Positions 9,447 to 52,718 of a stretch of 64,000 nucleotides of DNA are shown in pieces. A program made the translations under genes and the position numbers. This DNA is from an uncultured Nitrososphaerota archaeon (GTDB lineage Archaea > Thermoproteota > Nitrososphaeria > Nitrososphaerales > CADDZS01). Positions within the stretch are counted from its first letter, which is position 1. Each line of letters starts with the position of its first letter. The notes below the pieces were generated by a model. It was not told where the DNA came from, searched no databases, and saw only the letters and a list, made by a program, of their open reading frames with translations. The DNA is taken from the NCBI GenBank assembly GCA_963799845.1, contig CAWCYI010000004.1, forward strand, positions 1,504,001 through 1,568,000, written 5' to 3'.

Positions 9447-10970
9447 TTGGCTCAAAATATGAAACCGCCAACTCTCGCCGAAATGCGTGAAATCTCAGAC
9501 GAACTGGGTTTTGGATTGAATGATAAAGATCTGGCCAGCTTCATTCTCTATTTGGAACGCGATGTCGTGCCAGTCTTCACCGAGCTCGAGGCGATGGAGG
9601 AGCCGAAGATGATTTCCGAAAATGCTGTGCGGGATTCCGGACATTTCCCAACTCTGGATGAGAACAAGTTTGGGGCATGGGCCTGGAAGTGCAGCATCAA
9701 AGGGAAAACACGAGGAGTGTTGTCGCGGAAGAAGATCGCTCTAAAGGACAACGTCTCTCTTGCGGGAGTACCGATGACAAATGGTACCGGCTCGATGAAA
9801 GATTACATTCCACAGATAGACGCCGAGGTGGTGAGGCGCATTATCGCGGCCGGTGGCGAAATCGTCGGGAAGGCAACGTGTGAGAATTTCTGCTGGACCG
9901 GAGGATCAAGCACATCGTTCCCGCAGCCGGTATTGAACCCGAATAATACAAAGTTCATGGCAGGCGGCTCTTCAAGCGGCAGCGGGGCGCTCGTCGCAGC
10001 GGGGGAAGTGGATATGGCGATCGGTTGTGATCAGGGAGGATCAATCCGCATCCCGAGTTCGTGGTGCGGCGTTTTCGGGTTGAAGCCGACGTACGGGCTT
10101 GTTCCTTACACCGGGATCGTCACGGGAGAGATGACCTTCGACCACGCGGGTCCGATGGCGTCGACGGTTGAAGACCTCGCGCTGCTACTGGAAGTTATTG
10201 CCGGCCGGGACGGATTTGATCCGAGGCAGGCGATGGCGGGAACTCCGGCGGAGACTCCGAAGTATTTCCAGAACCTAAAGCCCGACATGAATGGTCTGAA
10301 GGTAGGACTCGTCAGCGAGGGGTTTGGGTGGAAAGAGTCGGAGCCTGACGTTGATCTCGCTGTTAGGCGATCCGCGTCCAAGCTGGAAGAACTGGGAGCG
10401 AGGATGAGCGAGGTCTCGATTCCCATTCACAAAAAAGCCTCCACGATGATGCTCGGAATCGATATTGAAGGATCGTGGAGGGCGCTCCGCGACGGCTCGG
10501 TCAACTTTGGCACATTCGGCTACTACGACACGGAACTTGCTCACTTCATCGGCTCGCACCTAACGGGCGGCGGGGATTTCTCGCCGAATGCAAAACTCGT
10601 CGCAATCTTTGGGCAGTACCTGATAGAGAAATATCATTCAATATACTATGCAAAAGCGCAGAACCTGCGGCCGTCGGTCAGGAAGAAGTACAACGAGGCG
10701 CTGCAATCTTACGACCTGCTGGTGATGCCCACGACTCCGCAGAAAGCGCAGCCGTTCCCGGACGGGGAAAAAGATCTCGTGAATTTCATCACAAGCGGTT
10801 GGAACATGACTGCGAACGTTGCGCCGTTCGATTTCACGGGGCATCCGGCGTTAAACGTCCCGTGTGCAAGGTCAGGAGGCCTCCCGATCGGGATGATGAT
10901 TGTTGGAAGACACTTCGATGAGCAGACGATCCTCAATGCGGCGCTTGCTTTCGAAAAACTATCAAAGTAA
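9447..10970 (+). CDS. amidase (amidase-signature family)
   Basis: IALKDN, AGGSSSGSGA, GCDQGGSIRIPSSWCGVFGLKPT. Confidence 0.95.
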   Translation: MAQNMKPPTLAEMREISDELGFGLNDKDLASFILYLERDVVPVFTELEAMEEPKMISENAVRDSGHFPTLDENKFGAWAWKCSIKGKTRGVLSRKKIALKDNVSLAGVPMTNGTGSMKDYIPQIDAEVVRRIIAAGGEIVGKATCENFCWTGGSSTSFPQPVLNPNNTKFMAGGSSSGSGALVAAGEVDMAIGCDQGGSIRIPSSWCGVFGLKPTYGLVPYTGIVTGEMTFDHAGPMASTVEDLALLLEVIAGRDGFDPRQAMAGTPAETPKYFQNLKPDMNGLKVGLVSEGFGWKESEPDVDLAVRRSASKLEELGARMSEVSIPIHKKASTMMLGIDIEGSWRALRDGSVNFGTFGYYDTELAHFIGSHLTGGGDFSPNAKLVAIFGQYLIEKYHSIYYAKAQNLRPSVRKKYNEALQSYDLLVMPTTPQKAQPFPDGEKDLVNFITSGWNMTANVAPFDFTGHPALNVPCARSGGLPIGMMIVGRHFDEQTILNAALAFEKLSK

Positions 10971-10996
10971 GGAACGCCTGAACGGTTATCGGTGGC

Positions 10997-12432
10997 TGTT
11001 CTGTCCAGCCTTCGTCGGGTTTTGCGACGAATTACTAATTGAAACTTTAGAAATTCCAACAGGAATATGGCTTATTCTTTACCCATGGTTAAGCTCCTTC
11101 AAACGTTCAATTTTTATTACGTCCTTGGCTGTTCATCAATCTCTCAAACGGAAGTGTCAAGAATATAGTCTTCGCCCTGAAGTCTGTAAGACAGCCACTA
11201 TCCAGTCCAGCGCCGCAGTTACTGGAATTGATGAATGAATTCAGATCGATGGTTAACAACTGCATTAAGATCGGTCTCGAAACTAACGCTTCCTCGTTGA
11301 AGAGACTATCTTTGCTTGCTTACTCCACAATGAAACGAGAGTATCCCACCGTCCCTTCCTATTACAGGTTGACCGCAATTTCAAAAGCTGCTGGCATTCT
11401 TTCGTCCGGAAGGAAGTCGGAACGGAGGGGAGTAACGACGAAGGACCCTCGTCTCAAGAAGCCGCTTCTGGTATCCTGCTATCACTTCAGGATCAAAGAT
11501 CACACCCTCTCTTTTCGAATATCCAGGAAAGATAAGGTTGTGAAAATTCCGCTCACGAGCCACACAGTCGAGAAAATCGAAAAAGGAGGGATCGAAGTGA
11601 GGTCGTTCACCCTGACTCCGACCAGCCTTTCATTGTCGATCAGAAAGGAAATTGCATCTTTCAAACCTGAATGTTTCCTCGGCATCGACAGAAATGCATC
11701 GAATGTTACTTGCGGGAACATGGAAAAGGCGGTTCAATTCGACATGAAGAAAGTCGAGGAAATTGCAAAAACGACAAGGGATGTGATGAGGTCCTTCAAG
11801 CGAAACGATGTCAGGATAAGAAAACTCCTAGCATCAAAGTACGGAAGACGGAGGTCAGAAAGGGTAAATCAGATTCTCCACAAAGTTTCAAAGAACATTG
11901 TAAATCTAGCGAAAAATAGCCGCGGAGGAATCGTGCTTGAACAAATTGACGGACTGCGAAACTTGTACAGAAAAGGGAATTATCAGGGCAAGAACTTTCG
12001 TGCCAGGATGAATTCCGTACCTTGGTACGAAATCAAGAGGCGTATAGAATACAAGGCGGCATGGGAAGGAATTCCAGTTATTCAGTTAACTAAAGGAGAG
12101 ACCAGAGGTACTTCAAAGCTCTGTCCAATATGCGGGGGAGAGACTCCTAGAGGACAGATTCAGTAGAGTACACCGACGAGAGCTCTGGTGTGTAAAGTGT
12201 GAGAGATGGCTCGACAGGGACGTCGTTGCTGTCATGAACATCTCTCACAGAGGCTGGCTGAGGTTCGTCCAGTCTAACAAGAAAGGGGAAGTAGGTGAAG
12301 CGATGGTACAGGAACGAGAACATCCTGATGAGCCTCTAATCCTGAAAGTCGATGCTTCCAAGTTGAGTCGTCATTGGGGAGATAAGTTATTAACGGAGCT
12401 TCTTATTCATCCGACGAAGACAAAACAGAACC
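10997..12432 (+). mobile_element. non-autonomous tnpB element with IS6-like terminal inverted repeats
   Basis: left end (t)gttctgtccagccttcgtcgg vs reverse complement of right end ggttctgttttgtcttcgtcgg; flanks tcggtggc (10989-10996) and tcggtacc (12433-12440) match 6/8. Confidence 0.75.
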
Positions 12433-12452
12433 TCGGTACCACAAATCCATAA
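11228..12452 (+). CDS. tnpB: RNA-guided endonuclease TnpB (frameshift in G-run near 12138)
   Basis: RuvC I GIDRN, RuvC II VLEQI, CPICG zinc finger; the shifted frame gives WCVKC..DRDVVAVMNI (RuvC III). Confidence 0.88.
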
Positions 12453-12803
12453 CAGTCATTATCAAACGACGCATAAATCGCAAAACTAGAGAGCGTGAAT
12501 CAACATACCAGTCTTTCCAATCGACAGCACTCTGGTTCTCGCACTCGTTCTGATTGCAGCCGTGATCATATTTTCAATTCTGATACGATCCTATCACAAA
12601 CAAAAAGCCCCGAAGGATCCGATGATTGTCCCCCGCGAGGAAACTGAATCTACTCCTACAGCCAGTTAATCGCCTCTTTGGACACTAATTCACTTTCCGG
12701 GCACGATCCGATGAAGTAAAATTCCGTTATTTCAAGCTTAAATGATAGGGATTATTCTGGAATTTGGAAAACCTTAATCATTAACAAAACTACTGAGGTT
12801 CGG

Positions 12804-33247: not shown

Positions 33248-35837
33248 TTGACAACCAGTATCGCGCAAGGCGAACAGGAGTTAGGAGTGTTCCCCGCAGC
33301 ACTTTTCAAACTGGTAATTATAGCAGTGATTCTTGGAGCTTCTTTTCTGATTGTCTTCTTTGCTCCGACTTCTTTCTCCACTTCGACTTCGAGCTCCTAT
33401 ACATTGACAGTAAGCTCGCCTTACGGCACTTCATATGGGTCCGGAAGCTATCCGAACGGCACTACCGCCACCTTCGGCATATCTGCGACAACCGTCTACA
33501 GCCCTGAAGGTACTACAAGGTACATATTCGCGGGATGGTCTTGTTCCGGCAGCGGCTGCTATTCAGGATCCAGCCCCTCGGACTCGGTAGTCATGAACGA
33601 TAATATCGTTGAAAATGCGGATTGGATAACTCAGTACCTACTTTCGATCTCGGTGACAGGAAATGGATCAGTGAATCCAACAGGGCAGAACTGGTATGAT
33701 GCTGGTTCAATAGTCGAGGTTTCCGAAACTCCCCAAGGAGGGACATGGATTTTTGACTATTGGGAACTTGGCGGGGAGAACGTCGGTTCATCGCAGACAT
33801 ACACAGTTGCAATGGACTCGCCCCAGGATCTCATTGCCAATTTCATTGACGCTCAGATACAATCGAAGCTAGTGAATGTGACTGACTCTTACGGGAACAA
33901 CCTGAGAAATCCAGACGGGACCTTTTACAGACTGGACAAGTTCGAGATACAGTATGAAGTGGTCATCGTTGGAGGGAATAGTATTCTCCCTCCGAGCATT
34001 ACATTCGTTGTAAACGTCACTTATCCTCAGAACGTTCTAAGTGAGACCGAGAACGGAAGTGATTTTTCGATCTTCACGGTATTGCCAAATGCCGTATTTG
34101 CGCCCTACAACATTACGCTCACCGCTTCCATACTGAATTCAGTCGACGATTCAAGGAGATCTATTCCGAATTACAACTACGAGCCCTTCGCGGTCGTTAA
34201 TTATTCCCCCTATTTTGCCTACTTTACATACATGGATTACAACGCTCTAAATTCCTCAACTTATGAAAGACCTTTTGTCGTTCTTCTAAGATACGACGGA
34301 AATTCTCCAGGATACAGACTATTCAGGAGACATCAACACCGATCCATTCAGCTCTTCAAACTCAACGGGTGAGAGAGTCATTGTAAACAGCTTCACTTTC
34401 TCGACAAAGGGCTGGAGCATTTTCTCGAACCTCAGCATCGTCAACGATTCATTTGGCGTGACAAATTTCCTCTATCATCCAGACCTCAGCTTGTCTTCTA
34501 CGCTCCTGAACAACAAGACAGGATTTCCTACCGTGATAACTTGGTCAAATAGAGTTCAGAAGTACTACTTCCTCTCTAACATCCAACAGATCGAGAATTA
34601 CGTGAGTGCTGATTCAATAATATACTTCAATGTGACCGCGTGTGCATGGTATGACAATAGTTACGGCTCTTCTAATTATCGAACTAACGATTTCAACACT
34701 TCCTATCTGTACCAGCCTATATTTTTCAACGGCTACCTGGTGTTCAAGCCTTACGGCGGCTCAGATGCGAACTTCTCGGTTACGATTGTCTCGCACAATC
34801 CCGCCCCGCTCGATTCTTATGTCGTCTCCGAGGCTTCTTCGGTTTTTGGGAACGACACAAAGGCAACCAGTTCGTTAGACCAGGATCTCTATCCAGCATA
34901 TTCTACAACGATCTTGAAACCGTTAATTTCGGATTCTCAAGAGTGGGTGTTTTTGATAAACCAGACCAATCTCGCGACCTCGAATTCAGACACGATGCCG
35001 TACTTTACTATTTCAGTTTCTGGAAAGGTTGGATATACCCAATACATTTACGAGGCAAACAATCCGCCTTATTACTTGAGCGCCCCAGTCACTTACTATC
35101 AAGCTGTCGAGAGCACTACTTACAATGTCTCTGACTATTTTGGACTCTTCGCGATGAGTGATTTTCCTACTTCCTTCCCCTTCCAAGATCTCACCGGATA
35201 TTATTTCATGCAGCCGTCCGTGGGAGAGGATCTCGTCATGCAGCCTCTAAATTTCTCGTTTTCCTCTTCCGCATCCATTCCCTACTTGGTAAGAACATAT
35301 TCAGATCCTACCGGACCTTTCTTCGTATCGTACGAACCAGGGAATCTGACCCAATCCTATGCTATGGTCTATGGAGAAAATTCAATGACCGTCGTATCAT
35401 CGAACTTTGTTGGCGGAGGAATAGGCCTCGACGGCAATCCGGTATCTGAGAACGGAGGGACTTCCTATGAAGTGTCACTGCTCATAGGAAACCAGAGTGG
35501 CGGAGCCTCTTATGTTTGGGTAGTGAGCGACAAAGGTCAAGTTCTGTATAACGAGAGCCTACTCGCTTCCTCATCCTCGTCCATTTCAGGATTATTCGGG
35601 CCTGCCGGATACGTTGGAGAATACACACTACAGTTCCCCGTTGGAAACGCTAGCAGCTCTGTTTCGATTTATATCGAAAACGCTTGGGGCGGCATGAGCA
35701 TAATTGAAGGACTGGAGATAACTCCGAGTTCTCCCCCGCCTCTGTATTATTCTTCGGAGTTTCTCGCTGCTATACTCGTAATTGCATTCATGATATGGTT
35801 CTGTTCGGCCTTTGGTCGGCGAATGAAGTTCTCATGA
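33248..35837 (+). CDS. large membrane-anchored surface glycoprotein with InlB-B/Flg_new-like repeats; frameshift near 34315; 3' end overlapped by the tnpB element TIR
   Basis: N-terminal TM, YTLTVSSPYG..GSGSY..FAGWS and QYLLSISVTGNGSV..FDYW repeats, many NxS/T sequons, C-terminal TM. Confidence 0.7.
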
Positions 35838-37170
35838 ATTCTCTACTTCACTCTTTCCTCTGACCTCAGCTTACTCGAATCGACTCGAAGAATCACCGTC
35901 GGCGTCTGCGGGTTCCCCCTCACTGCTTCACTTTCGAGTCCTTTTACGTTGTGAGACTGTGCGAACCTCACCCAGCCTCTGCGAAAGATGTTCATGACAG
36001 CTACTAGATCTCTGTCAAACCATCTTTTGCATGCGATACACCAGAGCTCTCTTTTATGTTCGGCATCGCTTTTGAGTGGTTGTTGGAGTCTCTCCCCGCA
36101 TATGTAGCACTCAAGCGAAGTTCCTCTGGTTTCTTTTTTAGTTAAGCGAATAACTGGAATCCCCTGCCAATTTGCTATATACTCTATCAACCTCTTTATT
36201 TCAGTGAAAGGCCAGTTGTTATTCATCATTCGTCGATATTTCCTGCCTTGATAGTTACCTTTTCCGTACATTGAGCGAATGTTTGTGATATCTTCAAAGA
36301 CTATGGCTAACCTATTGAGCGAGCAGAATGTAATGATGTCATTTGATACTAAATTCAAAATGCTTTGAGTTCGATTCTTCTTTCTTCTCCCATACTTCGA
36401 AATCATCCTCTTCCTGATTCGGAAATCGTTTCTAACGAAAGATTTTATGATCCCTTTTGTGGTCTCGCCTATCTCGACAATCTTGTTCATGTCGTAGTAT
36501 GCGACTCTTGATGGATTTCCAGTTGCCAGATTTCTCAGGTTCCGATCTATTCCAGCTGCTGAGGTTATGCCAGTTATCTCAGGTATTTCCTTTGCAATGC
36601 ACAGTGATAGGGATCTCTCAGTTAAAGTGAATGATCTTACTTTGATATCTAGGTCTGAAGCGAGAATCTTAACCGTATGTGCGTTCAACGAAATGAACTC
36701 ACACTTTCCTCTCCCGATCAGAATCCTTAGCTCTCCGTTTACAATCTTGAAACTGTAACACGAGACTACGATGGACTTCTTCAGATAAGGGTCTTTGGTT
36801 GGATGGCCTCTCTTGATCGATTTCTTTCTCGAAGCTAGTATTCCAGCAGCTTTGGATATTGCGCATAGCTTGTAGCAGGAAGGGACATTTCTGTACCTCT
36901 TGAGCTCTTTATAGGAGAGCATTGAAAGCTTCTTTAGGGCGGATACATTGTTATTTGCCAGTCCAATCCTGATAGCGTCGTTTGTCATTTGTCGATAATC
37001 ATTCATCAAGCAAAGTATTTCTTTCGATGGACAGTAAGATTGCTTGATAGATTTCCTTGCAAGCACTTGGAATACCCTCATGACAGCAAATCTCTCAATA
37101 TTTGAACATTGTTAGCTTTTTTCAAATATTTGATTGATTTTTCTCCCCGAACCAAAGTCTGAACACAACC
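35797..37170 (-). mobile_element. second tnpB element with IS6-like TIRs
   Basis: ggttctgttcggcctttggt (35797-35816) vs reverse complement of 37151-37170 ggttgtgttcagactttggt, 17/20 identical; no TSD retained. Confidence 0.78.
35843..37081 (-). CDS. tnpB: RNA-guided endonuclease TnpB (intact ORF)
   Basis: GIDRN / VFEDI / DRDLVAVMNI RuvC triad, CYICG..WCIAC zinc finger; clear homolog of 11228-12452. Confidence 0.92.
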   Translation of the reverse strand: MRVFQVLARKSIKQSYCPSKEILCLMNDYRQMTNDAIRIGLANNNVSALKKLSMLSYKELKRYRNVPSCYKLCAISKAAGILASRKKSIKRGHPTKDPYLKKSIVVSCYSFKIVNGELRILIGRGKCEFISLNAHTVKILASDLDIKVRSFTLTERSLSLCIAKEIPEITGITSAAGIDRNLRNLATGNPSRVAYYDMNKIVEIGETTKGIIKSFVRNDFRIRKRMISKYGRRKKNRTQSILNLVSNDIITFCSLNRLAIVFEDITNIRSMYGKGNYQGRKYRRMMNNNWPFTEIKRLIEYIANWQGIPVIRLTKKETRGTSLECYICGERLQQPLKSDAEHKRELWCIACKRWFDRDLVAVMNIFRRGWVRFAQSHNVKGLESEAVRGNPQTPTVILRVDSSKLRSEERVK

Positions 37171-49035: not shown

Positions 49036-49201
49036 AGAAGGGGAACTTGGCTAAAAATACGAGGAGAAAAAGGCATTGGATGTGAAGCGATAGGAACGGA
49101 ACCAGAAAAGACGACTGTAATCCTACGAGTCGATACGATGAAGTTAAGTCAAAGAAAAGCAAGATCAAGTTGATCTCATCAACCGAAGACTACAGGGAAC
49201 C
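49036..49201 (+). pseudogene. orphan 3' remnant of a TIR-type tnpB element (omegaRNA region plus right TIR)
   Basis: translates KGIGCEAIGTEPEKTTVILRVDTMKL, matching the C-termini of both TIR-type TnpBs; ends catcaaccgaagactacagggaacc like element 1 catccgacgaagacaaaacagaacc. Confidence 0.68.
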
Positions 49202-50539: not shown

Positions 50540-51363
50540 GAAAGTTCGTCTGCATGCATACCAAGTGCAGCTGAAAAGGAAAGAAGTGTGTTGCAGATGA
50601 CGCAATCTTCGATGAAGCAAAACTCCTCAAAATCAACGGAGACTTCTACGTGTATCTCACAGTCGAAAAGGACATCCAAATCGACAGGAAACCAATCGGG
50701 ATGCTTGCAGTCGATGCTGGCCTACACAACATCGCCACTACAGTGAATTCTCTCGAAAGAAAATCTAGCTTCTATGGAAAAGAGCTTCGAAAGCTGCGAG
50801 CACACTTCTACCTTCTTCGGAAAGCATTGCAGATGAATGGTGCATACGGAGCCCTCAAGAGAGTGGGGGATAAAGAATCTCGAATAACGAACGACATCCT
50901 GCACAAAGTTTCTACAGCCGTAGTAGAGGAAGCGGACAGACTCAACGTGGCGATCACGATTGGCGACTTGAAAGGGATCCGACTGCAACGATGACACTCA
51001 CGCGGTTTCATGCGCAAGCTAAATAGTTTTCCATTCTACAAGCTGTTCCAGATGATTCGATACAAAGCATAATGGCGCGGCATCAAAGTCATAAAAGTTT
51101 CAGAAGCGTGGACTTCCCAGATATGCCATCATTGCCTCTCGAAAGGTTTTCGAGTGGGTGGCAAATTCAAGTGCTTCGCATGCGGACACGAATACAACGC
51201 GGACTATAACGGTGCATACAACATAATGAATCGGGGGATAGGGCAAGCTCTATCTCAGGGGCTGCTTTTGGCACAGCCCATATCGAGAACTCGCTAGGAT
51301 GAAACACCATGACGAGCGTTAACGAAGCGAGAATCTCCCTGCCTTCAGGCGGGAGAATGTCAA
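50540..51363 (+). pseudogene. tnpB: 5'-truncated IS605-type tnpB pseudogene with intact right end
   Basis: AVDAGL, IGDLKGIR, in-frame TGA 50992 and TAA about 51070, NADYNGAYNI; right-end hairpin tctccctgcc-ttca-ggcgggaga followed by TCAA (51360-63). Confidence 0.82.
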
Positions 51364-51401
51364 CTCTGTATTCAATCAAAGGGATAGAATGCAGAAGTGA
51401 A

Positions 51402-52718
51402 CTACCCACGACTGATGATCGTGGGCTTCTCCACGATCAAAGCAGGGCTTCCTGTTTCAACCACCATGCTTGCTCTGACGTCTGGAATCTTTTGAAAGTA
51501 TTCCAAGAGAGTAGAGGCAAGAGTGTCCGCAGGCGTTAATTCCCTATGCACCATAGGTACTCCTCCTTCCTTTTCGATGTTTATCGCGGAGTTGAGGTCT
51601 CTGCCCATTATGAGACCACAGTACGCGCATTCATAGATTCTATCCACAAGAGTGACCTGATTCCTTGCGTTGCAACGCGAGCATTTCTGGGTCGTGGGAA
51701 TGAAGCTATCCACTTTCCTCGGCGTTTGTGCCTTCTTTTCAAGCGCACTGATTATTTCGCCCAGTGAGGTGTTCAAGATTCTTCTTCCCCAAATCCGCTG
51801 CCACGCTTTGATTGCATCATCCTCATAGCAAATCGTTCTGAACTGTTTTGTGAGTCCGTGCACAAGCTTGTTCTGGATATCGTTCTTGATGCTCGTCGTC
51901 CCATGATAGGCTTTATCCAGTCTCGTTTTTGCCTTCCACCAGTTGTGGCTGTGGTATTTCTTTCTGCTTAGCTTCTTGCACAATCTTCTCATTTGCTTCG
52001 AGATAGGGACTTCGTAGCTGATTCTGATCCCGTTTGACAGCGTGAGCTGGTTCTTGATTCCAAGATCAATCCCTACGCTTCGTTCGTCCTCCAATGCCTC
52101 TTTTCTCTTTTCTGCAAACGACTTCGTTTGGTATGTCGTCACGTGCAGATAGTAGTCTCCATGCTTTCGGATCAGAAGCGCGGATGCAAGATCGGCGTTC
52201 GCAGGAATCTGAAAAATCCCTCTTGTTTTGAGTCTCTGCTTGATTCCCTGAATGTGGACGTAGTGCTTATCGATGATCTTGTACGTCATCCCTTGCTGCT
52301 TGAGTGGGATGGAACTCATTTCACTTTTGAATTTGAGCGCACCAACTTTGTGTCCGCTCTTCTTCAACCTGGAAAGTGATCTGATGTTGTCTCTCATCCT
52401 GTCGATGAGTTCCTGTTTCATCTGGGATGAAAGACATCGGATTTCTCTTGTTTCGAAACCATTCTTTGCCTTGACACGGACCGCGCCCAACCTGTAGTCG
52501 GCCTCGAATACGTTTCCGTTTGCAAGCACATGATTGTAGAACCACTTGGCTTCGAGAAATAATCTATCGAGATGTTCGTGTGTCTTGTCGCTGAGATGGG
52601 AAGTATCTATTTTCAGCTCATATTGCTTACAGGTTTGAGTCCTCCGTCTCTCCTTGGTTCTCTTGAGAGTATCGCGTATGGCGTCATTCTTGAGAGACAT
52701 CAGATTCTCCAAGCGCAA
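51402..52718 (-). CDS. tnpB: RNA-guided endonuclease TnpB, IS605/IS607-type, intact; right end ...gtcgtgggtagTTCAC at 51397
   Basis: GIDLG / YEDD / RDLNSAINI RuvC triad, CSRC..CAYCG; canonical cccacga..tcgtggg end hairpin; no tnpA nearby. Confidence 0.9.
   Translation of the reverse strand: MRLENLMSLKNDAIRDTLKRTKERRRTQTCKQYELKIDTSHLSDKTHEHLDRLFLEAKWFYNHVLANGNVFEADYRLGAVRVKAKNGFETREIRCLSSQMKQELIDRMRDNIRSLSRLKKSGHKVGALKFKSEMSSIPLKQQGMTYKIIDKHYVHIQGIKQRLKTRGIFQIPANADLASALLIRKHGDYYLHVTTYQTKSFAEKRKEALEDERSVGIDLGIKNQLTLSNGIRISYEVPISKQMRRLCKKLSRKKYHSHNWWKAKTRLDKAYHGTTSIKNDIQNKLVHGLTKQFRTICYEDDAIKAWQRIWGRRILNTSLGEIISALEKKAQTPRKVDSFIPTTQKCSRCNARNQVTLVDRIYECAYCGLIMGRDLNSAINIEKEGGVPMVHRELTPADTLASTLLEYFQKIPDVRASMVVETGSPALIVEKPTIISRG

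What the first reader, a model, noticed from the sequence alone, without database searches (positions are those of the whole stretch)
10989..12440. TnpB RNA-guided nuclease carried in a transposon with IS6-like terminal inverted repeats and an 8-bp target duplication
Seen: the tnpB gene is enclosed by imperfect TIRs of about 24 bp, (t)gttctgtccagccttcgtcgg and ggttctgttttgtcttcgtcgg. The flanking 8-mers are tcggtggc and tcggtacc (6/8). There is no subterminal hairpin plus TCAA/TCAC end of the kind seen on the conventional tnpB elements at 51.3-51.4 kb. Established: IS200/IS605 (Y1 HUH) elements have neither TIRs nor TSDs, whereas GGTTCTGT ends and 8-bp TSDs typify IS6-family DDE elements (IS257/IS431). 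Inference: this is a TnpB clade mobilised in trans by an IS6-type DDE transposase. IS6 moves by replicative cointegration, so the usual homing-after-excision role of TnpB would need rethinking. The guide would begin with the TSD (tcggtaccacaaatcc...).
Basis: partly seen in the sequence, partly recalled or inferred. Interest (0 to 1): 0.85.

Follow-up and report, generated by a model that had tools for sequence, protein, structure and literature searches.

The report
TnpB gene inside IS6-type transposon
This is a small hitch-hiking transposon of a soil archaeon that has the inverted ends and 8-bp target duplication of the IS6 family but carries an RNA-guided nuclease gene (tnpB) and its guide RNA instead of a transposase, an unusual pairing seen across several archaeal phyla.

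Summary
Window 10997-12432 is a 1,436-bp element with 22-bp inverted ends (17 of 22 alike). A same-genus genome has the empty site with one copy of TCGGTACC, which fixes both boundaries and the 8-bp duplication.

The cargo is a tnpB of a clade found in Nitrososphaerota, Bathyarchaeia and Asgard MAGs. The window copy lacks a start codon and has a possible frameshift.

Across relatives, GG(T/C)TCTGT ends with 8-bp duplications recur: 19 distinct perfect cases in the first two collections. The same ends, up to 20 of 20 identical, enclose DDE_Tnp_IS240 (IS6-family) transposases. No transposase lies beside any tnpB copy. Mobilisation in trans by IS6-type enzymes is the best reading but is not proven. 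The host genome holds only IS6 fragments, and five multi-copy genomes show no IS6 domain.

Two further points:
- The right end doubles as the last stem of a covarying guide-RNA-like structure.
- A T-purine motif sits just before the left duplication in 30 of 33 insertions, always on the tnpB 5' side. This is where a TAM would lie.

TnpB in DDE transposons is published (PMC10691335); I found no IS6 link in print. Three earlier notes of this scan report the same family on other DNA.

The parts
10986..10988 (+). TTA directly 5' of the left duplication: the TAM-like T-purine motif
   Evidence: The empty site in G308 also reads TTA before the target. T-purine at -2/-1 in 30 of 33 related insertions.
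10989..10996 (+). Left copy of the 8-bp target duplication, decayed to TCGGTGGC
   Evidence: the empty site has TCGGTACC.
10997..11018 (+). Left terminal inverted repeat (22 nt)
11165..12452 (+). tnpB, probably defective. ATA stands where the paralog has ATG, and the frame changes at the G run. The reading frame runs through the right end into the flank.
12134..12138 (+). GGGGG run where the paralog has GGGG: a +1 frameshift, or an assembly or strain difference
   Evidence: One short-read contig of run X1 continues as if there were four G (table 7). This is one contig at depth 5, so weak.
12273..12432 (+). Guide-RNA (omega-RNA)-like structured region, ending at the last base of the element
   Evidence: Covariance model R1 scores 66.6 bits, E 2.4e-14. 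Covariation in relatives.
12411..12432 (+). Right terminal inverted repeat. In relatives it also forms the 3' arm of the terminal RNA stem; the window copy has mismatches there.
12433..12440 (+). Right copy of the 8-bp target duplication, TCGGTACC
12433..12452 (+). Predicted guide segment: the duplication plus the flank. The length is inferred.
   Evidence: Inferred from TnpB anatomy.
35797..37170 (-). Second member of the family in the window: open 422-codon frame (411-codon ORF from the chosen ATG), ends GGTTGTGTTCAG... and GGTTCTGTTCGG..., no matching duplication (0 of 8)
49060..49201 (+). Orphan right-end remnant of a third member, matching the guide-RNA-like region only
   Evidence: Model R1 scores 50.6 bits; sequence.

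Best explanation
Window 10997-12432 is a non-autonomous transposon of the IS6 kind. Its 22-bp inverted ends begin GGTTCTGT and it has an 8-bp target duplication. Its only cargo is a tnpB gene (an RNA-guided RuvC nuclease) and the guide RNA encoded over the 3' end of that gene.

It has no transposase. Members are most likely moved in trans by the long archaeal IS6-family transposases (SWIM finger + zinc ribbon + DDE_Tnp_IS240), whose own elements have the same ends.

The right inverted repeat has two jobs: it is the transposase site in DNA and the last stem of the guide RNA in the transcript. The transcript reads on into the flank, so the guide is the duplicated 8 bp plus the DNA beyond it.

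In an unoccupied copy of the site that sequence is preceded by T-purine (mostly TTG or TTA), the position of a TnpB TAM. In the occupied site it is preceded by ...GAACC. I infer that TnpB cuts empty alleles and repair copies the element back in, as in IS605 elements but on a DDE chassis.

**Shown:** boundaries, duplication, family-wide ends, shared ends with IS6 transposase elements, RNA covariation, flank motif.
**Inferred:** trans mobilisation, guide identity, TAM, homing.

The window copy itself is probably dead.
For: **Boundaries.** The paralog alignment stops at the ends, and the empty site in G308 has one TCGGTACC.

**Family-wide ends and duplications**
- Genome collection: 51 loci were given and 43 rows came back. 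Of 33 rows with an end score of 12 or more, 11 have 8 of 8 duplications (10 distinct), 3 have 7 of 8, and the window has 6 of 8. Mismatched pairs of loci gave no true 8 of 8.
- Metagenomes: 64 loci were given and 51 rows came back. 12 rows have 7 of 8 or better, giving 9 new distinct sites.
- Hold-out set: 4 more sites at 8 of 8.

**IS6 link**
- All 5 genomes first tested that hold young copies have PF13610 transposases.
- Elements with these ends and a perfect 8-bp duplication enclose such transposases: L095 and L096, 11 of 27, 3 of 22, and G346:C47.
- L088 has matching ends (20 of 22) but no duplication.
- Pfam on L088 and L095 gives DDE_Tnp_IS240 at 58.5 and 52.6 bits, plus SWIM.
- End identities are L218 = L193 at 20 of 20, L088 against L076 at 18 of 20, and L089 against L039 at 20 of 22.
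- The IS6 marks are an 8-bp repeat, a GG tip and cTGTt (PMC7986276).

**RNA**
- The terminal hairpin that uses the inverted repeat is paired in 87.3% of cells and has 36 double-change cells. 0 of 500 shuffles reach this, and slid registers give 25-43% pairing.
- RNAalifold finds the same hairpin and a long stem with 9-15 double changes per pair in five of its seven pairs.
- Many G-U pairs favour the sense strand.
- The model hits the window copy, both other intact paralogs outside the training set, and a remnant.

**Flank motif**
- T-purine at -2/-1 occurs in 22 of 23 sites in the discovery set and 8 of 10 in the hold-out set. It is present in 15 of 16 sites that lack an A/T run.
- In relatives without tnpB it occurs on 6 of 34 sides (Fisher 7e-10).

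**Nuclease.** The catalytic D, E and D and the zinc-finger cysteines are invariant in the three intact paralogs.
Against: - No IS6 transposase lies within 1.5-3 kb of tnpB. There were 0 in 116 loci, and one unrelated fragment outside the element in 49 loci. The link therefore rests on shared ends, duplication length and co-residence.
- The host genome (86.7% complete) has only broken IS6 pieces.
- 5 of 5 Bathyarchaeia genomes with 5-7 or more copies have no PF13610 match, although the four of them scanned for ends (G492 was not; G525, which does have an IS6 transposase, was scanned instead) show 18-52 ends of this kind. Their copies are old, at 64-87% identity.
- Co-occurrence is only modest: 5 of 15 tnpB-positive against 26 of 236 tnpB-negative genomes (p 0.03, kin not independent).
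- Exact TTG also flanks one side of 6 of 17 relatives without tnpB, so part of the motif belongs to the insertion machinery.
- The mirror motif on the right side is enriched too (9 of 23), which a TAM alone does not explain.
- About half of the copies with good ends have no matching duplication.
- In the window copy and L002 the terminal stem of the model is mismatched.
- No expression data exist, and nothing here tests cleavage or homing.
Confidence: 0.72

Rival explanations
1. The T-purine/TTG motif is the target preference of the IS6-type insertion machinery (often next to archaeal TATA boxes), not a TnpB TAM. On this reading TnpB is passive cargo with respect to site choice, and the fixed polarity reflects capture of a host promoter that drives tnpB.
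For: - Exact TTG lies on one side of 6 of 17 relatives without tnpB, typically a few bases after an A/T-rich box. Examples, read on the strand on which TTG comes before the duplication, are atataaatcTTG, tcataaagcTTG and atataaataTTG.
- 7 of 23 tnpB sites have an A/T run just upstream.
- The mirror motif is enriched on the right side (9 of 23).
Against: - 15 of 16 tnpB sites without an A/T run still have T-purine.
- Beyond exact TTG, 13 of 14 remaining tnpB sites are T-purine, against 0 of 28 remaining control sides.
- Polarity is 22 left to 1 right-only in tnpB elements. In transposase elements TTG lies 3' of the gene in 4 and 5' in 1.
- The two readings need not exclude each other. In IS605 elements the TAM equals the transposase's target (recalled knowledge).
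Confidence: 0.3
2. The elements are moved by another DDE family that also has GG ends and 8-bp duplications (for example ISL3, ISH6 or IS1595 types), or by an enzyme not encoded in these genomes. On this reading the likeness to IS6 ends is convergent.
For: Five multi-copy genomes lack any PF13610 match, and the host genome has only IS6 fragments. That other families share the 8-bp duplication and GG tips is recalled from ISfinder tables and was not tested here.
Against: Every transposase found between ends of this class is DDE_Tnp_IS240-positive or a close homolog of one that is. End identity reaches 20 of 20. Copies in the genomes without the transposase are old.
Confidence: 0.08
3. The inverted ends and flanking 8-mers are chance, or part of an ordinary IS200/IS605 (IS1341-type) end.
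For: Only that solo tnpB genes are usually of that type, and that the window's 8-mers match in just 6 of 8 positions.
Against: - The empty site has a single 8-mer.
- There are 19 distinct perfect 8-bp duplications in relatives in the first two collections.
- Paralog homology stops at the ends.
- Ends of the other kind lie elsewhere in the window.
Confidence: 0.01

Closest known systems
IS6/IS26 family insertion sequences (Varani et al. 2021, PMC7986276; passages read)
   Same: 8-bp direct target repeat. Short inverted ends with a GG tip and CTGT core. Autonomous relatives with the same ends encode a DDE_Tnp_IS240 transposase.
   Different: - This element has no transposase and carries tnpB plus a guide RNA.
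- The 'caaa' motif of the family consensus is not present.
- The autonomous archaeal relatives are 2-4 kb and mostly carry passenger genes, with a transposase of about 380 aa that has SWIM and zinc-ribbon parts. The review knows one passenger-carrying member and two MITEs, and does not mention TnpB.
IS1341-type (solo tnpB) members of IS200/IS605
   Same: A tnpB gene alone, with a structured RNA over its 3' end that runs to the element's right boundary, so that the flank supplies the guide. General anatomy is recalled from the TnpB literature and from review PMC13565253 (passages read).
   Different: IS200/IS605 elements have no inverted ends and make no duplication; they have subterminal hairpins and a Y1 transposase. 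This element has both inverted ends and a duplication. Elements of the conventional kind lie at about 51.3 kb in the same window.
DDE-transposase-associated TnpB branches (Altae-Tran et al. [quoted passage not shown]
   Same: TnpB inside transposons with inverted terminal repeats. Solo tnpB copies flanked by the ends of transposase-bearing relatives, hence movement in trans. The tnpB 3' end lies within 250 bp of the transposon end.
   Different: The main text names only IS630 for its six DDE branches. A 2026 review lists ISL2, IS630 and IS1031 (PMC13565253).
Fanzor1 in eukaryotic DDE transposons (PMC3627910 and PMC10530073, search listings only; details recalled)
   Same: A TnpB homolog as cargo of transposons with inverted ends and target duplications.
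   Different: Those are eukaryotic or viral, use other transposase superfamilies, and encode longer proteins. No direct comparison was made here.

Membership tests
TnpB (RNA-guided RuvC nuclease) | RuvC-like domain with catalytic D, E, D, and a zinc finger between RuvC-II and RuvC-III | tested here: met
   Pfam PF07282 at 54.2 bits on the intact paralog and 32.7 bits on the window piece. ISDra2 TnpB structures hit at E 1.4e-7. The D (GIDRN), E (FEQ/DI) and D (DRD) residues and four cysteines are invariant in the 3 paralogs. The window copy itself is interrupted.
TnpB (RNA-guided RuvC nuclease) | Structured guide RNA over the 3' end of the gene, ending at the element boundary | tested here: met
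   Covariation in 27 right ends and model hits at window 12273-12432. No Rfam family matches. No RNA data exist.
IS200/IS605 | No terminal inverted repeats, no target duplication, subterminal hairpins, Y1 transposase target at the left end | tested here: not met
   22-bp inverted ends and an 8-bp duplication proven by the empty site. The genome's two Y1 genes lie elsewhere.
IS6 family | 8-bp direct target repeat | tested here: met
   Empty site. 19 distinct perfect cases in relatives in the first two collections. A few 9-bp cases.
IS6 family | Short inverted ends with GG tips and the cTGTt and caaa motifs | tested here: inconclusive
   The GG tip and CTGT(T/C) are present in nearly all copies. 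The caaa motif is absent; AAC or AAG follows instead. The consensus is taken from PMC7986276.
IS6 family | Encodes a DDE_Tnp_IS240 transposase | tested here: not met
   None in the element or beside any of the 165 tnpB loci examined. The feature is met by autonomous relatives with the same ends. The element is therefore a non-autonomous derivative, not an IS.
IS6 family | Transposition by replicative cointegrate formation | not testable with these tools
   The only indirect hint is that many copies with good ends lack matching duplications. Intramolecular replicative events or recombination would produce this.

The most novel reading that the evidence does not exclude
TnpB and the IS6-type transposon are mechanistically coupled rather than merely co-resident. 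One 22-bp sequence serves both as the transposase-binding end and as the last stem of the guide RNA. TAM recognition (TTR) by TnpB decides where and in which orientation these elements persist, or even integrate, so that each copy is born with a working TAM-guide pair against its own empty site. On this reading, TnpB homing rather than transposition sustains the dozens of copies in genomes that have no IS6 transposase.
Probability: 0.25. Interest if true: 0.85.

Novelty: new variant of a known kind. Interest (0 to 1): 0.62.

Why it matters
TnpB is thought to keep IS200/IS605 and IS607 elements alive by re-cutting the scarless empty site. How it serves DDE transposons, which leave duplications and may never excise, is open (discussed in PMC13565253).

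This family offers a compact prokaryotic case spread over three archaeal phyla. Its anatomy can be read off the sequence: the transposase end equals the guide-RNA stem, the guide starts with the duplication, and a short T-purine motif sits where the TAM must be.

That makes a direct test possible: a TAM screen plus a transposition assay with matched IS6 transposases. It also gives a natural source of small (about 400 aa) archaeal TnpBs with a probably short TAM. Finally, it shows that archaeal IS6 relatives are mostly cargo carriers, unlike the bacterial family.

Tried and rejected
- **Rfam.** No family matches window 10900-12520 at E up to 1.
- **Sequencing runs.** No RNA holder is listed. 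Three soil DNA runs of one study hold the stretch. Laying their contigs gave no joint across the element, so no empty allele was seen there.
- **Single end-like hits in the host genome.** Those at C4:152379, C4:1249860 and C6:1050981 are not paired ends of elements.
- **PF13610 hits of 25 bits in the host genome.** They are IS3-type rve transposases, not IS6.
- **L089.** A search for its second end found none within 7 mismatches.
- **Cis-linked IS6 transposase.** None was found.
- **Literature searches for a TnpB-IS6 link**. The 6 papers that hold both 'TnpB' and 'IS6 family' are unrelated resistance or Deinococcus studies, judged from titles and abstracts.
- **Not used.** Structure prediction, complex prediction and the big protein searches were not needed for the question.
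Full report
**What is there.** Window 10997-12432 is bounded by tgttctgtccagccttcgtcgg on the left and by the reverse complement of ggttctgttttgtcttcgtcgg on the right (17 of 22 alike). The flanking 8-mers are TCGGTGGC and TCGGTACC. Between the ends lies one gene-sized reading frame with the TnpB zinc-ribbon/RuvC signature: PF07282 at 32.7 bits for the first piece and 17.8 bits for the second. The gene is not intact. Where the closest paralog has ATG the window has ATA, and no in-frame ATG, GTG or TTG lies upstream. A run of five G (12134-12138) replaces four G and shifts the frame. One short-read contig of a soil run continues as if there were four G. The shift may therefore be an assembly or strain difference, but that is one contig at depth 5.

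**Boundaries.** The window lies in a 4.6-Mb, 9-contig archaeal genome of 86.7% completeness. A second copy (C6:1547975-1549399, 83% identical) aligns with window 11000-12432, and the flanks are unrelated. A same-genus genome, G308, has the upstream amidase gene and the downstream ABC-exporter region on one contig with about 38 bases where the window has the element. It reads ...GATTA TCGGTACC ATAAATCC.... This is an empty site with one copy of the 8-mer. The element is therefore exactly 10997-12432, the duplication is 8 bp, and the left copy has since changed at two bases.

**The family**
- The host genome has four paralogs (50-53% protein identity to the L002 paralog), all between GGTTCTGT-type ends.
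- It also has an orphan right-end remnant at window 49060-49201, a 643-bp mini-element, and a 2,371-bp element with the same end class and a perfect duplication AAAAAATC. That last element carries an unknown 205-aa ORF and an IS110-family transposase.
- Relatives of the protein occur in MAGs labelled Nitrososphaerales, Nitrosotalea, Nitrosopumilaceae, Bathyarchaeota and Atabeyarchaeia (49 loci) and in 253 metagenome stretches, of which 80 were kept.
- An automatic search for the best inverted pair around each gene gave the following:
  - Genome collection plus the follow-up and own-genome copies: 51 loci given, 43 rows returned, 33 rows with an end score of 12 of 20 or more. Of these, 11 have an 8 of 8 duplication (10 distinct sites), 3 have 7 of 8, the window has 6 of 8, and 18 have 5 or fewer. 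Pairing left and right flanks of different loci gave no true 8 of 8.
  - Metagenome loci: 64 given, 51 rows returned, 12 rows at 7 of 8 or better, which is 9 new distinct sites.
  - Later hold-out of 26 Bathyarchaeia loci: 4 at 8 of 8, 2 at 7 of 8 and 3 at 6 of 8.
- A few copies fit a 9-bp duplication (L278, L330, L341).
- In two copies (L002, L051) the perfect 8-mer abuts a left end that is 3 or 2 bases short.

**Which enzyme**
- All five genomes first tested that hold young copies have PF13610 (DDE_Tnp_IS240) genes of 350-440 codons.
- Two of these proteins score 58.5 and 52.6 bits on PF13610 and also carry a SWIM finger.
- Their elements have the same end class and the same duplication length:
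  - L095 and L096 have perfect duplications. L088 has matching ends (20 of 22) but no duplication.
  - 11 of 27 loci in a phylum-wide sample and 3 of 22 in a class-wide sample have perfect duplications.
  - G346:C47 adds one more.
- They are 2-4 kb long and mostly carry extra ORFs.
- Ends match closely across cargo types:
  - L218 (transposase) and L193 (tnpB) share GGTTCTGTCAAGTCTTCGGT, 20 of 20.
  - In genome G003 the transposase element L088 and the tnpB element L076 share 18 of 20.
  - In G001 one end beside a transposase (L089) matches the tnpB element L039 at 20 of 22.
- The IS6 review names an 8-bp repeat, GG tips and a cTGTt core as family marks (PMC7986276, passages).
- No other transposase type was found between such ends.

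**Evidence against the IS6 link**
- No transposase lies next to tnpB in 165 loci.
- The host genome has only broken IS6 pieces.
- Five Bathyarchaeia genomes with 5-7 or more tnpB copies have no PF13610 match. The four of them scanned for ends show 18-52 ends of this class, against 0-3 for the reversed-pattern control.
- Copies in those genomes are 64-87% identical, so they look like old residents that outlived their transposase. That is an inference.
- Co-occurrence is modest: 5 of 15 tnpB-positive against 26 of 236 tnpB-negative genomes in the class sample, and 2 of 5 against 26 of 295 in the phylum sample.

**Guide RNA.** I aligned the last 120 nt of 27 right ends; one search lists the rows left out, and L112 and L134 were also dropped. 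The part of the inverted repeat six bases in from the tip pairs with a segment 20-60 nt upstream. 87.3% of cells are paired and 36 cells have changes on both sides, for example GTTAAC/GTTAAC, CAGGTC/GACCTG, GGGAAG/CTTCCC and GGTAACTC/GAGTTACC. 0 of 500 shuffles reach this value, and slid registers give 25-43% pairing. RNAalifold, run on its own, finds the same hairpin plus a 7-bp long-range stem with 9-15 double changes per pair in five of its pairs. Frequent G-U pairs point to the tnpB sense strand. A covariance model of this alignment hits window 12273-12432 (66.6 bits), the paralog L002 (62.1), the second window copy (60.6) and the remnant at 49060-49201 (50.6); none of these were in the training set. 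In the window copy and L002 the terminal stem itself is mismatched. No Rfam family matches. The structure ends at the last base of the element, so a read-through transcript would carry the duplication and the flank as its guide. That is inferred, because no RNA data exist.

**The flank motif**
- In the 23 distinct insertion sites with a duplication of 7 of 8 or better (plus the window), the base two before the left duplication is T in 22. The base before the duplication is G (15) or A (8). The triplets are TTG 9, TTA 5, ATG 3, GTG 2, CTG 1, ATA 2 and GGA 1. The background frequency of T-purine is 0.10.
- The empty site of the window has TTA there.
- In hold-out sets the motif is present in 8 of 10 in-register sites. 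It is also present in 3 of 3 sites read with a 9-bp duplication.
- It does not depend on an A/T-rich context: 15 of 16 sites without an A/T run have it.
- The one discovery-set exception (L134) has the motif on the other side.
- Among 17 relatives without tnpB (16 with a transposase and one 430-bp mini-element, all with duplications of 7 of 8 or better), the motif is on 6 of 34 sides. In every one of those six it is exactly TTG, often just after a TATA-like box. It lies 3' of the transposase gene in 4 and 5' in 1.
- Near-invariance, tolerance of TTA/NTG and fixed polarity are peculiar to the tnpB elements: 30 of 33 against 6 of 34 sides, Fisher 7e-10; and 13 of 14 against 0 of 28 once exact TTG is set aside.
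- This is what a TAM requirement would add, and in IS605 elements the TAM equals the transposase's target (recalled). The weaker mirror signal on the right side (9 of 23) is unexplained.

**How it most likely works**
1. An IS6-type transposase supplied in trans inserts the element and makes the 8-bp duplication.
2. The tnpB transcript, or a processed 3' part of it, folds into the guide RNA whose last stem is the right inverted repeat.
3. TnpB loaded with it recognises TTR followed by the duplication and flank. That combination exists only in an unoccupied allele.
4. Repair from an occupied copy restores or spreads the element.

Steps 1 to 4 are inferred from anatomy. Replicative against cut-and-paste movement cannot be told here. 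The many copies with good ends but unrelated flanks (18 of 33) would fit replicative or recombinational rearrangements.

**What is known**
- TnpB in DDE transposons with inverted repeats, and solo copies moved in trans, are described by Altae-Tran et al. 2023. They report six DDE branches, and only IS630 is named in the main text (sections read).
- A 2026 review lists ISL2, IS630 and IS1031 and calls such associations rare (PMC13565253, passages).
- The IS6 review does not mention TnpB and knows one passenger-carrying member.
- Searches for TnpB together with IS6 found nothing relevant.
- Three earlier notes of this scan report IS6-type ends on TnpB elements or their remnants in other genomes.

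I therefore class this as a new variant of a known kind. The dual-use end and the polar TAM-like motif are the parts I did not find in print.

Noticed in passing
window 35797-37170 (- strand): Second member of the same tnpB family with an open 422-codon frame (411-codon ORF from the chosen ATG) and IS6-type ends. Its flanks do not match (TAGGAGCT against ATATCATG, 0 of 8). A metagenome contig (L126) has the same flanks.
   Followed up: partly
window 49060-49201 (+): Orphan right-end remnant of the family. It matches the guide-RNA-like model (50.6 bits) and ends ...gaagactacagggaacc, with no tnpB upstream.
   Followed up: partly
window 51180-51620: Two convergent conventional tnpB ends, each with a G+C-rich hairpin followed by ...TCAAC (IS200/IS605 type). 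The genome has two Y1 transposase genes elsewhere (C4:750843, C6:729242).
   Followed up: partly
G000:C6:336646-339016 (L007:1047-3417): 2,371-bp element with 59-nt inverted ends of the same class and a perfect duplication AAAAAATC. It carries a 205-aa ORF with no Pfam match and an IS110-family transposase flanked by its own perfect 16-nt inverted repeat. This may be one mobile element nested in another.
   Followed up: partly
L234-L238 with L205, L210, L213, L215, L218; also L311, L314: 7 of 16 transposase-bearing IS6-type elements sit exactly 8 bp after the right end of another such element. All five neighbours examined (L234-L238) hold a C-terminal transposase fragment. In L238 the same 8-mer occurs three times (AAAGTTAG, GAAGTTAG, GAAGTTAG), as if the new copy had re-used the neighbour's duplicated target.
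   Followed up: partly
L205-L222, L302, L311, L314 flanks: Transposase-bearing IS6-type elements often have a TATA-like box 3-6 bases beyond the duplication on one side (for example caagatttatat, caatatttatat, aaggatttaaat). This suggests promoter-proximal insertion.
   Followed up: partly
G543, G513, G404, G398: Bathyarchaeia genomes with 18-52 ends of this class, including repeated pairs of about 250-480 bp (mini-elements), but no DDE_Tnp_IS240 match in the assemblies.
   Followed up: partly
G000:C6:1582717-1583359 (L011:1018-1660): 643-bp element with 22-nt inverted ends of the same class (AGTTCTGTCC...) and no matching duplication. Its content was not examined.
   Followed up: no
L010:3299-4428 (G000:C6): An IS630-type element with 28-nt inverted ends and a two-part transposase frame, unrelated to the finding.
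   Followed up: no
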